From positions 2,291,762 through 2,315,761 of the forward strand of contig NZ_JAFIBM010000001.1 of assembly GCF_017833035.1 (NCBI RefSeq): a DNA stretch of 24,000 nt, written 5' to 3'. Below, one piece after another: positions 14,589 through 21,271 of the stretch. Within the stretch, counting starts at the first letter, position 1, and each line of letters begins with the position of its first letter. Below the pieces are notes generated by a model that was given only the letters and a program-made list of their open reading frames with translations, had not been told where the DNA came from and did no database searches. Source of the DNA: Frigoribacterium sp. PvP032 (GTDB lineage Bacteria; Actinomycetota; Actinomycetes; Actinomycetales; Microbacteriaceae). The translations under genes were made by a program, and so were the position numbers.

Positions 14589-16193
14589 GTGGACGAGACA
14601 GCAGCCCCCGAGACAGCAGCCCCAGCCCTCGAGGCAGCAGCCCACGGCGGCCCCCTCACCCGCGACGACGTGCGCGACGTGTGGGAGGCGGACCCGACCT
14701 GGGCGCTCCTCCGCAGCACGAACAGCCGCTGGGTCGTCCCCCTCTTCTCCGAGCACCTCGAACAGGCCGAGGGTCCGGTCTCGGCCGACTGGTTCCACCA
14801 GCGAGTCGCCGACGCCCTCGAGCAGAACGCTGCCGAGCAGACCACAGCCGAGGAGGCGCTGCTCACGCCGGCCCCGGACGGCCCCGCACCCGAGACGCGC
14901 GCCACCCCGGCGGACTACTGCCGCAGCTGGGTCGACGCCCGCTGGCTGGTCCGCACACGTGCCTCCTCGTCGGACGCGGCCCGTGCGGAGTACCGGCTGT
15001 CGCCGCACGCGCTGCGGGCGCTGCGCATCGTGCGCGAGCTGGTCGAGGCCGACAACGCCGTCAGCGAGGCGCGCCTCGGCAGCATCGCGAACGCCGTGCG
15101 GCAGCTGGCAGGGCTCGCAGACCCGAGCGTCGAGTCGCAGCTCAGCCGCATCGACGTTCAGCTGGCCGACCTGCAGCGCCGGCGCGACCGGATCGAGCGG
15201 CACGGCACCGAGCCGGTCCCGCTCGACGCGCTGAGCCGTCAGCTGCACGAGGTCGTCCGGCTGACGGCCTCGCTGCCCGCGGACTTCCGCCAGCTGAGCG
15301 CGATGGTCGAGCAGCGGCACCGCGAGGTCGCCCGCCGTGCCGCCAGCCAGGAGCTCGGCAAGGGCGCGCTCGTCGACCAGTACCTCCGCGAGAACGACCT
15401 GCTCGAGCAGACGCCCGAGGGCCGTGCGTACCGCGGCTTCGCGCAGATGCTGTCGTCGAGCGAGATCGACGACATGCGTGCGGACATCGACACGGTCCTC
15501 GCCCAGCCGGACGCCGCCTCCCAGATCGGCGAGCGCCAGCGCGCCCAGCTCGAGCAGCTCATCTCGTCGTTGCTCGCCGAGGAGCAGGCGGTGCAGGAGA
15601 CGTACGGCCGCTGGACGTCGTCGCTCCGCCGGTTCCTCAGCCGGTCGGGCGCCGACAGGCACCAGCGGCTGCTCGCCCTCGCCGACCGTGCGCTCGACGC
15701 GGGTGCCGCCTGGGCCGAGCAGCAGCCGGGAGCCGCCGTGCTGCCCGCCGACGTGCTCGGCCTCGGCCCGCTCGACGCCGTCGACCTCACCCAGCTGCAG
15801 CTCTGGAGCGAGCGCGGCCGGCCCACCGTCGACGTGCAGGTCACCGAGGGCGACCTCGCCCTGCCCGAGGCCGACCGGGTCGCGCTCCGCCTCACCGCCG
15901 GCACGAGCCCCGCCGCCGTCGCGGGCACGCTCGACCGGCTCCTCGCCGAGCGTGACGAGGTGTCGAGCACCGACGTGTGGCTCGCCACCGAGCCCGAGTT
16001 CCGCCGCCTCGGCCTCGTGCTGAGCATGCTCGACCTCGCCGTCGACCGGGGTCTCGTCACCGACGACCGCGAGTCCGTCGTGCTCACCGTCGACCAGGGA
16101 GGCGTCGGCCGTGAGGTCGTGCTGCCGCGCCTCGTCTTCACGGCACCGTCCGCCGCCCGTTCCCCGAAGCACCTCCAGGGAGACCCCGCATGA
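14589..16193 (+). CDS. jetA: JetA (Wadjet/Mks kleisin-like subunit, DUF3375 family)
   Basis: The ORF track frame is 14304-16193. I place the start at GTG 14589, 9 nt after AGGAGGG (14574-14580), because upstream of it the frame runs through the repeat arrays. The segments WALLRSTNSRWVVPLFSEHL, YRLSPHALRALRIVRELVEADNAVSEARLGSI, a coiled segment (IDVQLADLQRRRDRIE), LPADFRQL and YLRENDLLEQTPEGRAYRGFAQML are typical of DUF3375/JetA. The stop overlaps the jetB start (ATGA at 16190-16193). Confidence 0.88.
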   Translation: MDETAAPETAAPALEAAAHGGPLTRDDVRDVWEADPTWALLRSTNSRWVVPLFSEHLEQAEGPVSADWFHQRVADALEQNAAEQTTAEEALLTPAPDGPAPETRATPADYCRSWVDARWLVRTRASSSDAARAEYRLSPHALRALRIVRELVEADNAVSEARLGSIANAVRQLAGLADPSVESQLSRIDVQLADLQRRRDRIERHGTEPVPLDALSRQLHEVVRLTASLPADFRQLSAMVEQRHREVARRAASQELGKGALVDQYLRENDLLEQTPEGRAYRGFAQMLSSSEIDDMRADIDTVLAQPDAASQIGERQRAQLEQLISSLLAEEQAVQETYGRWTSSLRRFLSRSGADRHQRLLALADRALDAGAAWAEQQPGAAVLPADVLGLGPLDAVDLTQLQLWSERGRPTVDVQVTEGDLALPEADRVALRLTAGTSPAAVAGTLDRLLAERDEVSSTDVWLATEPEFRRLGLVLSMLDLAVDRGLVTDDRESVVLTVDQGGVGREVVLPRLVFTAPSAARSPKHLQGDPA

Positions 16194-17041
16194 CCGACGC
16201 GACCGCCACCTCGACGCCCGAGGACGAGGGCACCGCGCCCGAGGACGAGGGCACCGCACCGGATGTCGACGTCCTCGCCGCCCCCGGCACGCTCCCCCTC
16301 GCCGGCCGTCGCGCGCTCGTCACCCTGCTGACCCACCGCTTCGTCTCGCGGGCGCGGCAGAAGGAGGCGTGGGCCGGACTCCTGGCGCACGAGGCCGACA
16401 TCCGCGCCCGCCTGTCCGAGCTGTTCCTCGAGCTCGAGGTCGACCACGGGCACGAGGTCGCGTTCAAGCGACAGTCCGGCGGAGATGACGCGCCCGTGCT
16501 GCTGCGCCGCGAGAAGCCGCTGTCGCGCGACGCGTCGTTCTTGCTCGTGTTCCTGCGGCGCGAGCACGCCTACACCGACGGCGACGACGAGGCCGTGGTC
16601 GTCTCGCGCGACCAGATCGCGGAGTTCCTCGGCCGGTTCCACGACGACACCGGCCGCGACGAGGTGCGGGCCGACCGCCGCGTCGACGCCGCGATCGCCG
16701 CCATGGTGTCGCGCGACCTGCTCGAGCCCGAGCCCGACGACCCGCAGCTCTTCACCGTCTCGCCCGCGATCGTCCCCCTGGTCAGGCCGGAGCAGCTGGC
16801 GCACCTCGAGCAGGTGTACCTCGACGCCGCAGGAGGCGCGGGTCACGACGCCGAGGTCGGTCCCGACCTCGACGAGGCCGAGCCGGGCGCCGAGGGAGAC
16901 GCCGACGAGCCCGACGCCGACGCCGACCTCGACGAGCCCGAGCCCGACGCCGACCAGCACGCCCCCGACCCCACGGCGGTCGCGCTCGACCTCGACCTCC
17001 CGCTCGACCTCCCCCGCGACACGGAAGCAGACCAGGCATGA
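16190..17041 (+). CDS. jetB: JetB (Wadjet/MksE-like subunit, DUF4194 family) with a long acidic C-terminal tail
   Basis: 283 aa. The core RRALVTLLTHRFVSRARQKEAWAGLLAHEADIRARLSELFLELEVDHGHEVAFKRQ...LSRDASFLLVFLRRE matches the DUF4194 pattern. ATGA overlaps occur at both ends (16190-16193 and 17038-17041). Confidence 0.85.
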   Translation: MTDATATSTPEDEGTAPEDEGTAPDVDVLAAPGTLPLAGRRALVTLLTHRFVSRARQKEAWAGLLAHEADIRARLSELFLELEVDHGHEVAFKRQSGGDDAPVLLRREKPLSRDASFLLVFLRREHAYTDGDDEAVVVSRDQIAEFLGRFHDDTGRDEVRADRRVDAAIAAMVSRDLLEPEPDDPQLFTVSPAIVPLVRPEQLAHLEQVYLDAAGGAGHDAEVGPDLDEAEPGAEGDADEPDADADLDEPEPDADQHAPDPTAVALDLDLPLDLPRDTEADQA

Positions 17042-21172: not shown

Positions 21173-21228
21173 CGAGAGGCCCCGAATCGACGTGTCGGGG
21201 GCGGGGAACGCCGATTCGGGGCCTCTCG
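21173..21228 (-). terminator. Hairpin downstream of the minus-strand metabolic operon, a candidate terminator
   Basis: Perfect 17-bp stem CGAGAGGCCCCGAATCG (21173-21189) / CGATTCGGGGCCTCTCG (21212-21228). It lies 44 nt beyond the stop of the 21272-22183 gene. Confidence 0.55.
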
Positions 21229-21271
21229 TGAGGCGCGCGGGGGGCGGAGGCGAGCGCGAGGGCGAGCCGGG

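What the first reader, a model, noticed from the sequence alone, without database searches (positions are those of the whole stretch)
14589..21271. jetA-jetB-jetC SMC operon with no jetD effector gene
Three ORFs joined by ATGA start/stop overlaps carry the hallmarks of three Wadjet subunits:
- JetA: DUF3375-like
- JetB: DUF4194-like
- JetC: Walker A GPTGRGKST, a long coiled-coil region, an SGGEGQ signature and an IVLDEGF Walker B

In the described Wadjet/MksBEFG systems, a fourth gene encodes the DNA-cleaving effector. This is jetD/mksG, a DUF3322 + DUF2220 Toprim nuclease, and it normally follows jetC.

Here jetC ends at 20703. The next ~570 bp contain only a hairpin and two repeat arrays, and then a convergent metabolic operon begins. 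I see three possible explanations:
- It is a JetD-independent MksBEF-like condensin.
- It is a Wadjet that lost jetD, with the repeat arrays sitting exactly where jetD would be.
- It is a variant that recruits a different nuclease.
Basis: partly seen in the sequence, partly recalled or inferred. Interest (0 to 1): 0.75.

Follow-up and report, generated by a model that had tools for sequence, protein, structure and literature searches.

The report
Wadjet SMC operon that lost its nuclease
This Frigoribacterium-type actinobacterium carries an intact three-gene Wadjet/MksBEF DNA-motor operon (jetA-jetB-jetC) whose DNA-cutting fourth gene jetD was deleted long ago, a nuclease-free state already known from Pseudomonas and Mycobacterium; the repeats next to it are an ordinary genome-wide repeat, not a jetD scar.

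Summary
Window 14589-20703 encodes intact, translationally coupled type I JetA, JetB and JetC. No jetD is detectable in the window, either as a gene or as a remnant.

jetD is also absent in all five Frigoribacterium-type relative loci examined (75-96% JetC identity, at least three genomic contexts). It is absent in Pseudoclavibacter and in two Leifsonia as well. The nearest jetD-bearing relatives are L046 (about 60% JetC identity, operon directly after an orthologous deaD) and one Leifsonia shinshuensis assembly with jetABCD at the same locus where another assembly has jetABC. The JetC tree implies at least three independent jetD losses.

JetC remains under purifying selection (dN/dS 0.15 against a 96% relative), and every jetD-less operon is intact.

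The two "repeat arrays" are not a jetD scar. They belong to a hairpin-forming dispersed repeat (CGGCGGGT phased every 20 nt) that also lies upstream of jetA and at 36 other stretches in Frigoribacterium genomes.

Best reading: an old, nuclease-free MksBEF-like derivative of Wadjet, a kind already described in P. aeruginosa and M. smegmatis. The adjacent RecB-like nuclease-helicase is not consistently linked to it. I rate it a new member of a known kind, of modest interest.

The parts
14268..14507 (.). Upstream array of the dispersed hairpin repeat: 2 tandem units of 132 nt, with the core 8-mer CGGCGGGT phased every 20 nt (four direct copies, then inverted copies). It lies between the divergent nuclease-helicase gene and jetA.
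   Evidence: TRF period 132, 1.8 copies, 90% matches. Motif hits. Hairpin fold z -4.3 and -5.2. Codon-position GC is non-coding.
14589..16193 (+). jetA (mksF-like kleisin, DUF3375), 534 aa. GTG start, 9 nt after AGGAGG.
   Evidence: Pfam DUF3375 E 7e-71 and PADLOC JetA1 869 bits. The same start was called in an independent assembly. Matches PDB JetA chains 8q72/8dk1, E 1e-16.
16190..17041 (+). jetB (mksE-like KITE, DUF4194), 283 aa. ATGA overlap with jetA. Acidic low-complexity C-terminal tail. The N-terminal DAFG[DE] motif is absent.
   Evidence: Pfam DUF4194 E 2e-33 and MksE; PADLOC JetB1 410 bits. Alignment A2 and motif scan.
17038..20703 (+). jetC (mksB-like SMC ATPase), 1221 aa. ATGA overlap with jetB. 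Walker A at aa 98, signature at aa 1104, Walker B at aa 1137. About 60 aa of low-complexity N-terminal extension, and a private S/T-rich insertion at aa 1004-1026.
   Evidence: Pfam AAA_29 and SbcC_Walker_B; PADLOC JetC1 707 bits. Motifs. PDB JetC 8as8/8dk2, E 2e-54. dN/dS 0.146 against L007. Alignment.
20759..20816 (+). Hairpin with a 20-bp stem, 56 nt after the jetC stop. It is a likely factor-independent (no T-tract) terminator of the jetABC transcript; this role is inferred.
   Evidence: Inverted repeat I13. Fold -23.4 kcal/mol, z -6.3. Stem conserved and loop diverged in L007. The simple T-tract terminator scan finds nothing.
20862..21117 (.). Downstream array of the same dispersed hairpin repeat: 2 tandem units of 142 nt (two direct, then three to four inverted CGGCGGGT cores per unit).
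   Evidence: Direct repeat D1, 88% identity. Motif hits. One unit only in the 96% relative L007. The family occurs at 36 other stretches in Frigoribacterium genomes. Fold z -5 to -6.
21173..21228 (-). Hairpin with a 21-bp stem, 44 nt downstream of the convergent citryl-CoA lyase gene. It is a likely terminator of that operon; this role is inferred.
   Evidence: Inverted repeat I12, 95% complementary. Fold -25.6 kcal/mol, z -5.9.
10693..14133 (-). Context gene, divergent from jetA: 1146-aa TM0106-family RecB-like nuclease fused to an SF1 (IGHMBP2/Upf1-like) helicase. It is not consistently linked to jetABC.
   Evidence: NCBIfam TIGR03491 160 bits. Pfam RNase_H_2, AAA_11/12/30. Present next to jetABC in L001 at 83% identity, but absent in L003, L045, L050 and L051.
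21272..22183 (-). Context gene, convergent: citryl-CoA lyase, first gene met of the metabolic operon (followed upstream by a CoA-transferase at 22180-23460 and TctA).
   Evidence: NCBIfam NF004864 396 bits. Same arrangement in L007.

Best explanation
The locus is a type I Wadjet (JetABCD/MksBEFG) operon that lost its Toprim nuclease gene jetD by a clean deletion in an ancestor of the Frigoribacterium lineage. It has been kept since as a three-gene kleisin-KITE-SMC unit.

**Shown**
- jetA, jetB and jetC are intact and translationally coupled.
- No jetD gene or remnant is present.
- jetD-bearing relatives exist at syntenic loci.
- jetD-less operons are intact across Frigoribacterium, Pseudoclavibacter and Leifsonia.
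- JetC is under purifying selection.

**Inferred**
- The encoded complex still assembles as a dimer-of-dimers SMC motor that loads on DNA and extrudes loops using JetC ATPase activity.
- Without JetD it cannot cleave plasmids. It therefore behaves like the nuclease-free MksBEF complexes of P. aeruginosa and M. smegmatis, which act on the chromosome (organisation, segregation, replisome positioning).

The flanking repeat arrays are unrelated copies of a genus-wide REP/BIME-like hairpin repeat. The two plain hairpins are probable terminators of the convergent transcription units.
For: **Identity of the genes**
- Pfam and PADLOC assign the three proteins to JetA1, JetB1 and JetC1 with near full-length coverage.
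- The closest solved structures are the type I JetC and JetA of E. coli GF4-3 and P. aeruginosa PA14.

**Absence of jetD**
- No DUF3322 or JetD_C domain in any window gene.
- No tblastn remnant in the window or in the seven other jetD-less loci searched (L051 was not included). The one marginal hit, E = 0.002 in L050, lies over the convergent isochorismatase gene that JetD overlaps in L049.

**Descent from jetABCD**
- L046 has deaD (86% identical to the window's deaD) followed directly by jetABCD.
- L049 (Leifsonia shinshuensis) has jetABCD between the same flanking genes where L050 and L003 have jetABC.
- In the JetC tree, L046 is basal and L049 is nested among jetD-less Leifsonia, so at least three losses are needed.

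**Age and persistence**
- jetD is absent in the window and L006 (another assembly of the same sequence).
- It is absent in the Frigoribacterium-type relatives L007, L023 (PhB116), L001/L002 (PhB160) and L051 (F. faeni).
- It is absent outside the genus in L045 (Pseudoclavibacter), L003 and L050 (Leifsonia) and L047 (a metagenome contig).
- The operon sits in several different contexts, always with full-length A, B and C and 4-nt overlaps.

**Selection**
- JetC dN/dS is 0.146 at dS 0.17 between two jetD-less relatives.
- ATPase motifs are intact.

**No cognate JetD elsewhere**
- Two searches of 5.8 billion proteins, using the closest lineage JetDs as queries, listed no Frigoribacterium JetD.
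- They found only 3 JetD clusters of the Leifsonia lineage, against about 25 JetC clusters for the Microbacteriaceae clade.

**Hint of relaxed JetD docking**
- The JetB N-terminal DAFG[DE] motif is kept in 4/4 jetD+ loci and lost in 4/7 jetD- loci, including all three Frigoribacterium.

**Precedent**
- M. smegmatis MksB sits in an operon with putative MksEF partner genes and follows replication forks (PMC11329512).
Against: - There is no direct evidence of expression, complex formation or any cellular function.
[quoted passage not shown] JetABC alone therefore gives no known defence benefit, and the selected function here is unknown.
- At deeper divergences dN/dS rises to 0.27-0.53, especially for JetA and JetB. 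This is probably inflated by GC3-limited dS, but it is also compatible with some relaxation.
- Repeated independent jetD loss could simply reflect selection to admit plasmids, with jetABC lingering afterwards.
- Only 24 kb of the genome is visible, so a jetD of another Wadjet type elsewhere in the genome is not excluded.
- The presence of Smc-ScpAB in this genome was not checked.
Confidence: 0.7

Rival explanations
1. The operon is a decaying remnant. jetD loss inactivated the defence system, for example under selection to accept a useful plasmid. jetABC is then a non-functional leftover that has not yet accumulated disabling mutations.
For: - jetD loss is recurrent and polymorphic at a single Leifsonia locus. 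That pattern is expected if loss is easily selected.
- In C. glutamicum, loss of mksG matches loss of mksB for pBHK18 copy number (PMC10123090).
- The JetB N-terminal motif and some low-complexity regions are degenerating.
- dN/dS for JetA and JetB is 0.4-0.5 at depth.
Against: - All the jetD-less operons examined, spanning 55-96% JetC identity and at least three genera, have full-length A, B and C with preserved 4-nt coupling and invariant ATPase motifs.
- JetC dN/dS is 0.146 between two jetD-less relatives.
- About 6 kb of useless genes would not stay intact over that divergence.
Confidence: 0.12
2. It is still a working plasmid or phage defence system that uses JetD supplied in trans from another locus, or a different effector nuclease. 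The candidate would be the divergently encoded TM0106 RecB-like nuclease-SF1 helicase (10693-14133), or the nearby NERD protein.
For: - The nuclease-helicase is immediately upstream and divergent, and it is conserved next to jetABC in Frigoribacterium sp. PhB160 at 83% identity.
- The region between deaD and jetA looks like a small defence island, with Vsr, NERD and the nuclease-helicase.
- The helicase part has a weak resemblance to Mokosh MkoA.
Against: - The nuclease-helicase is absent beside jetD-less jetABC in F. faeni, Pseudoclavibacter, both Leifsonia and the L047 metagenome contig.
- It is absent beside L046 jetABCD as well, so it does not substitute phylogenetically for jetD.
- It is a separate, divergent transcription unit.
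- No Frigoribacterium JetD of this lineage appears in the protein searches.
- The JetB motif thought to contact JetD is lost in Frigoribacterium.
Confidence: 0.1
3. The repeat arrays are functionally tied to the operon. They could be the scar or agent of the jetD deletion, the ends of a mobile jetABC cassette, or cis-acting sites for the SMC motor.
For: - Arrays of the same family lie on both sides of jetABC and nowhere else in the 24 kb. There are 16 phased motif pairs against 0.02 expected.
- The downstream array is at the same place in PhB116 and L007.
- jetABC sits in different contexts in different Frigoribacterium species.
Against: - The family occurs at 36 other stretches in six Frigoribacterium species genomes. 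These are mostly in intergenic regions, often between convergent genes, and unrelated to jet genes.
- jetD-less operons in PhB160, F. faeni, Leifsonia and Pseudoclavibacter have no such arrays.
- Copy number varies (one unit against two) like an ordinary tandem-duplicating repeat.
Confidence: 0.05

Closest known systems
Type I Wadjet / JetABCD (E. coli GF4-3, P. aeruginosa PA14), also called MksBEFG (C. glutamicum) or EptABCD (M. smegmatis)
   Same: - Same three core subunits in the same order with coupled genes: DUF3375 kleisin, DUF4194 KITE and a MukB-like SMC ATPase.
- Best PADLOC models are the type I JetA1, JetB1 and JetC1.
- The best solved-structure matches are these JetC and JetA chains.
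- Actinobacterial relatives at 45-62% JetC identity carry jetD in the canonical position.
   Different: - There is no jetD/mksG, the subunit that executes plasmid cleavage, so the defining defence activity cannot be carried out by this operon alone.
- The N-terminal JetB motif that probably corresponds to the JetD-contacting IFDR motif is missing (PMC10586767).
Nuclease-free MksBEF condensins (P. aeruginosa MksBEF; M. smegmatis MksB with putative MksEF partners)
   Same: - A three-gene kleisin-KITE-SMC operon without a Toprim nuclease.
[quoted passage not shown]
- Here, descent from jetABCD is shown directly by jetD-bearing relatives at syntenic loci.
   Different: - This is an independent, lineage-specific loss within Microbacteriaceae. 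Direct sequence comparison with the Pseudomonas or Mycobacterium MksBEF proteins could not be made with the tools.
- No functional data exist for this clade.
- The proteins still score as typical type I Wadjet rather than as a diverged condensin family.
REP/BIME-type interspersed palindromic repeats (for the flanking arrays only)
   Same: - Short GC-rich units in direct and inverted orientation that form long imperfect hairpins.
- They cluster in tandem with variable copy number.
- They are located in intergenic regions, often between convergent genes, and are dispersed at many loci of a genome.
   Different: - The architecture is unusual: a strict 20-nt phasing of an 8-mer core (CGGCGGGT), with two to five direct copies followed by inverted copies.
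- The family appears restricted to Frigoribacterium.
- No Rfam family matches.
- Association with a RAYT transposase was not examined.

Membership tests
Wadjet type I (JetABCD) | JetA: DUF3375 kleisin | tested here: met
   Pfam PF11855 240 bits, profile positions 5-474 of 474. PADLOC JetA1 PDLC00463 869 bits.
Wadjet type I (JetABCD) | JetB: DUF4194 / MukE-like KITE | tested here: met
   Pfam PF13835 116 bits over the full profile, plus PF21980 MksE. PADLOC JetB1 410 bits.
Wadjet type I (JetABCD) | JetC: MukB-like SMC ATPase with Walker A, signature and Walker B motifs and a long coiled coil | tested here: met
   PF13555 and PF13558. PADLOC JetC1 707 bits over positions 9-1103 of 1112. Motifs at aa 98, 1104 and 1137. 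PDB JetC 8as8 E 2e-54.
Wadjet type I (JetABCD) | JetD: DUF3322 plus DUF2220/JetD_C Toprim nuclease encoded in the operon | tested here: not met
   No such domain in any window gene. tblastn with four related JetD proteins gives no hit better than E = 0.24 in the window. jetC is followed by 568 bp of non-coding DNA and then a convergent operon.
Wadjet type I (JetABCD) | Restriction of small circular plasmids by ATP-dependent cleavage | not testable with these tools
   Requires transformation or plasmid-retention assays, or biochemistry.
Nuclease-free MksBEF condensin | Three-gene kleisin-KITE-SMC operon lacking mksG/jetD, stably maintained | tested here: met
   The same three-gene unit is intact in the jetD-less loci of four named taxa groups and two metagenome contigs. 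JetC dN/dS is 0.146.
Nuclease-free MksBEF condensin | Acts on the chromosome (organisation, segregation or replisome positioning), usually alongside Smc-ScpAB | not testable with these tools
   Only a 24-kb window is available, so neither the presence of Smc-ScpAB nor any phenotype can be assessed.
REP/BIME-like dispersed repeats (flanking arrays) | Many dispersed copies per genome | tested here: met
   An exact 22-specified-base pattern found 36 stretches in Frigoribacterium genomes, e.g. 16 in CFBP 13712 and 7 in PhB116.
REP/BIME-like dispersed repeats (flanking arrays) | Intergenic, palindromic, hairpin-forming units in variable tandem clusters | tested here: met
   36 of 41 clusters lie outside GC3-supported ORFs, and 16 lie between convergent genes. 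Fold z -4.3 to -6.2. One unit against two between L007 and the window.
REP/BIME-like dispersed repeats (flanking arrays) | Cognate RAYT (REP-associated tyrosine transposase) in the genome | not tested
   No whole genome was available, and none is encoded in the window.

The most novel reading that the evidence does not exclude
The nuclease-free JetABC of this Microbacteriaceae clade may still act against foreign DNA without JetD. It could do so in one of two ways:
- by silencing or compacting small circular DNA through loop extrusion, as Smc5/6 does;
- by handing stalled, fully extruded circles to an unrelated nuclease such as the adjacent TM0106 RecB-like nuclease-helicase.

Either would make it a new effector-swapped or effector-free Wadjet variant rather than a chromosome condensin.
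Probability: 0.1. Interest if true: 0.8.

Novelty: new member of a known kind. Interest (0 to 1): 0.35.

Why it matters
Specialists already hold that MksBEF, and perhaps MukBEF, arose from Wadjet by loss of JetD. That view rests mostly on distant comparisons.

This clade offers a graded natural series within one bacterial family:
- jetABCD next to deaD (L046);
- jetABCD against jetABC at one Leifsonia locus;
- long-standing jetABC in Frigoribacterium, with signs that a JetD-docking motif in JetB is eroding.

That makes one question directly testable in closely related proteins: what does a defence SMC motor do, and what changes in it, once its nuclease is gone?

Practically, it is also a caution for defence-system annotation. 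Three-of-four-gene "Wadjet" hits in Microbacteriaceae should not be scored as plasmid-restriction systems. Strains such as this one may be naturally more transformable.

Tried and rejected
**jetD pseudogene in the 568-bp spacer or elsewhere in the window**
- tblastn with JetD from L004, L046, L048 and L049 found nothing in the window.
- The spacer ORFs 20763-21302 (+) and 21001-21411 (-) lack coding GC3 bias and have no Pfam hit.

**Repeat arrays as jet-specific elements or as a known RNA family**
- Rejected. They are dispersed across Frigoribacterium genomes.
- Rfam gives no match in the window.

**Simple recent deletion**
- Rejected for Frigoribacterium. Relatives at 96, 84 and 75% JetC identity all lack jetD.

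**The upstream nuclease-helicase as an obligate partner**
- Rejected on synteny.

**Mapping the E. coli JetC F919 'larynx' JetD-docking residue onto this JetC**
- The region does not align reliably. No conserved aromatic residue distinguishes jetD+ from jetD- sequences, so the result is inconclusive.

**Other attempts that led nowhere**
- Sigma-70 promoter and T-tract terminator scans gave nothing in this 74% GC DNA.
- The Deep et al. 2022 paper defining the JetB IFDR-JetD contact was not held. That point rests on the review PMC10586767.
- A decisive whole-genome test for jetD in trans could not be run.

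
Full report
**1. What is in the window**

The DNA is about 74% GC. Real genes were picked by codon-position GC. On the + strand there are three genes:
- jetA, 14589-16193 (GTG start, 9 nt after AGGAGG);
- jetB, 16190-17041;
- jetC, 17038-20703.

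Both junctions are ATGA overlaps. An independent assembly of the same sequence calls the same three genes (L006).

Family assignment is clear:
- JetA matches Pfam DUF3375 (E 7e-71) and PADLOC JetA1 (869 bits).
- JetB matches DUF4194 (E 2e-33), MksE and PADLOC JetB1 (410 bits).
- JetC matches AAA_29, SbcC_Walker_B and PADLOC JetC1 (707 bits, nearly full length).
- The closest solved structures are the type I Wadjet JetC and JetA of E. coli GF4-3 and P. aeruginosa PA14.

**2. jetD is absent**

- None of the 18 GC3-supported genes in the window has a DUF3322 or JetD_C domain.
- tblastn with JetD proteins from four related operons finds nothing better than E = 0.24 in the window.
- In the seven other jetD-less relative loci searched, the only marginal hit (E = 0.002 in L050) falls on the convergent isochorismatase gene that JetD overlaps in L049. 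It is therefore not a jetD remnant.

The 568 bp after jetC has no coding signature. It consists of:
- a strong hairpin at 20759-20816;
- two 142-nt tandem repeat units at 20862-21117;
- a second strong hairpin at 21173-21228.

After that comes a convergent operon of citryl-CoA lyase, a CoA-transferase and TctA.

**3. The repeat arrays are a genus-wide dispersed repeat, not a jetD scar**

The core is the 8-mer CGGCGGGT repeated at an exact 20-nt phase. Several direct copies are followed by inverted copies, so each unit folds into a long hairpin (z -4.3 to -6.2).

- Sixteen phased pairs occur in the window against 0.02 expected. All lie in two places: downstream of jetC, and also upstream of jetA at 14268-14507, where there are two 132-nt units.
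- An exact scan of one genome per species found the pattern in 37 stretches. Of these, 36 are in Frigoribacterium species, on many contigs.
- 36 of 41 clusters lie outside coding ORFs, and 16 lie between convergent genes.
- None of those loci carries jet genes except L023 (PhB116), which is the orthologous jetC 3' flank.
- A 96% relative (L007) has one unit where the window has two.
- The Logan contig of this strain breaks inside the array.
- jetD-less operons in PhB160, F. faeni, Leifsonia and Pseudoclavibacter have no such arrays.
- Rfam has no matching family.

I read these as REP/BIME-like elements. They happen to occupy both intergenic regions around the operon.

**4. Where jetD went**

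JetC homologues place the window in Microbacteriaceae, close to Frigoribacterium. Synteny of relatives is summarised below.

| Locus | Organism / source | JetC identity to window | jetD |
|---|---|---|---|
| L007 | metagenome contig | 96% | absent |
| L023 | Frigoribacterium sp. PhB116 | 96% | absent |
| L001 | Frigoribacterium sp. PhB160 | 84% | absent |
| L051 | F. faeni | 75% | absent |
| L045 | Pseudoclavibacter chungangensis | 69% | absent |
| L003 | Leifsonia sp. ZF2019 | 65% | absent |
| L050 | L. shinshuensis (one assembly) | 63% | absent |
| L047 | metagenome contig | 55% | absent |
| L049 | L. shinshuensis (another assembly) | not measured against the window | present |
| L046 | unnamed (Logan contig) | about 60% | present |
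| L048 | Kribbella | 47% | present |
| L004 | Kibdelosporangium | 46% | present |

Two comparisons are especially informative:
- L049 and L050 share the same flanking genes, a response-regulator/PIG-L gene upstream and an isochorismatase gene downstream. They differ by the presence of jetD.
- In L046, jetABCD follows directly after a deaD gene that is 86% identical to the window's deaD. In the window, about 8 kb has been inserted between deaD and jetA. It contains Vsr, a NERD protein and a TM0106 RecB-like nuclease-SF1 helicase.

In a neighbour-joining JetC tree, L046 is basal to the Leifsonia and Frigoribacterium clades, and the jetD-bearing L049 is nested among jetD-less Leifsonia. At least three independent losses are therefore required: Frigoribacterium/Pseudoclavibacter, within Leifsonia, and the L047 branch.

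Within Frigoribacterium, every locus seen lacks jetD, and the operon sits in at least three different contexts. The loss there is old, not a recent strain-level deletion.

**5. Is a cognate JetD encoded elsewhere?**

This cannot be settled from 24 kb. I ran two searches of the 5.8-billion-protein collection, using the JetD proteins of L046 and of L. shinshuensis as queries.
- Among the best 120 hits listed for each search, no Frigoribacterium JetD appeared.
- Only three clusters of the Leifsonia JetD lineage appeared.
- The matching JetC clade, by contrast, has about 25 clusters from many named genomes.

jetD-less is therefore the predominant state of the lineage. A same-lineage JetD acting in trans is unlikely.

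**6. Is jetABC still functional?**

- Every jetD-less operon examined has full-length A, B and C with preserved 4-nt overlaps.
- ATPase motifs are invariant.
- Between the window and L007, both jetD-less, JetC has dN 0.025, dS 0.174 and dN/dS 0.146.
- Deeper comparisons give 0.27-0.53. However, dS is compressed when GC3 exceeds 90%, so these values are upper bounds.

This pattern fits maintained function rather than decay.

There is one suggestive sign of adaptation to life without JetD. An N-terminal JetB motif, D[AP][FY][GT][DE] (mostly DAFGD or DAFGE), is present in 4/4 jetD+ loci. It is absent in 4/7 jetD- loci, including all three Frigoribacterium. [quoted passage not shown] The equivalence of the two motifs is my inference, and the sample is small.

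**7. Mechanism**

*Established knowledge.* JetABC is a dimer-of-dimers SMC motor that senses small circular DNA by loop extrusion, and JetD is the nuclease that cuts it (PMC10586767; bioRxiv 10.1101/2023.11.03.565488). [quoted passage not shown]

*Inference.* This operon most likely encodes a nuclease-free loop-extruding complex. [quoted passage not shown] It would also resemble M. smegmatis MksB, which follows replication forks (PMC11329512). The two plain hairpins are probably the terminators of the two convergent transcription units; the stem of the first is conserved in L007 while its loop has diverged.

*Rivals.*
- A decaying remnant (0.12).
- A defence system using a trans JetD or another nuclease such as the adjacent nuclease-helicase (0.10). 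That gene accompanies jetABC only in the window lineage and PhB160, and is missing beside five other jetD-less operons.
- A functional link to the repeats (0.05).

**8. Comparison, novelty and verdict**

The locus meets three of the four gene-content criteria of type I Wadjet and fails the fourth, jetD. It should not be filed as a Wadjet defence system. It fits the gene-content definition of nuclease-free MksBEF, whose functional criteria cannot be tested here.

This kind of system is already described, so I rate it a new member of a known kind.

Its value is as a natural series that spans jetABCD, a jetD presence/absence polymorphism, and long-term jetABC within one bacterial family. That could make the proposed Wadjet-to-condensin transition experimentally tractable. 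Interest is modest (0.35).

Its interpretation is partly supported: the jetD loss and the MksBEF-like reading hold. The significance attached to the repeat arrays does not hold, and the alternative-nuclease idea has no positive support.

Noticed in passing
window 14268-14507 and 20862-21117; L008-L044: A Frigoribacterium-restricted dispersed repeat family. The core is the 8-mer CGGCGGGT at a strict 20-nt phase, with 2-5 direct copies followed by inverted copies, forming long hairpins. It is mostly intergenic, often lies between convergent genes, and varies in tandem copy number. There is no Rfam match. The exact two-helical-turn phasing is unusual for REP-like elements and could reflect a protein-binding array.
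   Followed up: partly
window 10693-14133 (-): A 1146-aa fusion of a TM0106-family RecB-like nuclease (TIGR03491; RNase_H_2/PD-(D/E)XK) with an SF1 IGHMBP2/Upf1-like helicase, weakly similar to Mokosh MkoA in the helicase part. It is divergent from jetA. It is conserved at 83% identity next to jetABC in Frigoribacterium sp. PhB160 but not in other jetD-less loci.
   Followed up: partly
window 6507-14133, compared with L046 1716-3630: In L046, jetA starts 94 bp after deaD. In the window about 8 kb lies between the orthologous deaD (86% identical) and jetA. It includes Vsr (9141-9617), a NERD-domain protein (9693-10613, -) and the nuclease-helicase. This looks like defence-island accretion next to the jet operon. 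No Dcm-type methyltransferase partner for Vsr was identified.
   Followed up: partly
window 16190-16330 (JetB N-terminus); alignment A2: The JetB N-terminal motif DAFG[DE] is a probable counterpart of the JetD-contacting IFDR motif of P. aeruginosa JetB. It is present in all four jetD-bearing relatives. It is missing from the window, PhB160, F. faeni and one jetD-less Leifsonia.
   Followed up: partly
window ~20047-20115 (JetC aa 1004-1026): A private low-complexity Ser/Thr/Gly insertion (…GSASATGSSTSTSTSTS…), absent from all relatives. It lies in the linker just after the segment that aligns to E. coli JetC residue 913, which is near the F919 'larynx' contact for JetD. The mapping is uncertain.
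   Followed up: partly
window 17038-17220 and 16870-17020: JetC has a low-complexity N-terminal extension of about 60 aa before the conserved head. JetB has an acidic Asp/Pro/Glu-rich C-terminal tail encoded by imperfect tandem DNA repeats. Both vary greatly in length among relatives.
   Followed up: no
L049 8001-9257 versus L050 8408-8442 and L003 13432-13443: In Leifsonia shinshuensis the 3' end of jetD overlaps the convergent isochorismatase gene by about 105 nt. In the jetD-less assemblies jetC abuts that gene within 10-34 nt. This marks a very clean presence/absence polymorphism at one locus.
   Followed up: partly
window 21272-23542 (-): The 756-codon ORF listed mechanically here is not one gene. 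The real genes are citryl-CoA lyase (21272-22183) and a family III CoA-transferase (22180-23460, in another frame), followed by the 3' end of a TctA transporter gene (23457-23915).
   Followed up: yes
window 2122-2925 (+): A 267-aa protein with a sub-threshold match to the C-terminal domain of the T6SS immunity protein Tdi1 (25.7 bits against a 27.4 cut-off). That is unexpected in an actinobacterium.
   Followed up: no
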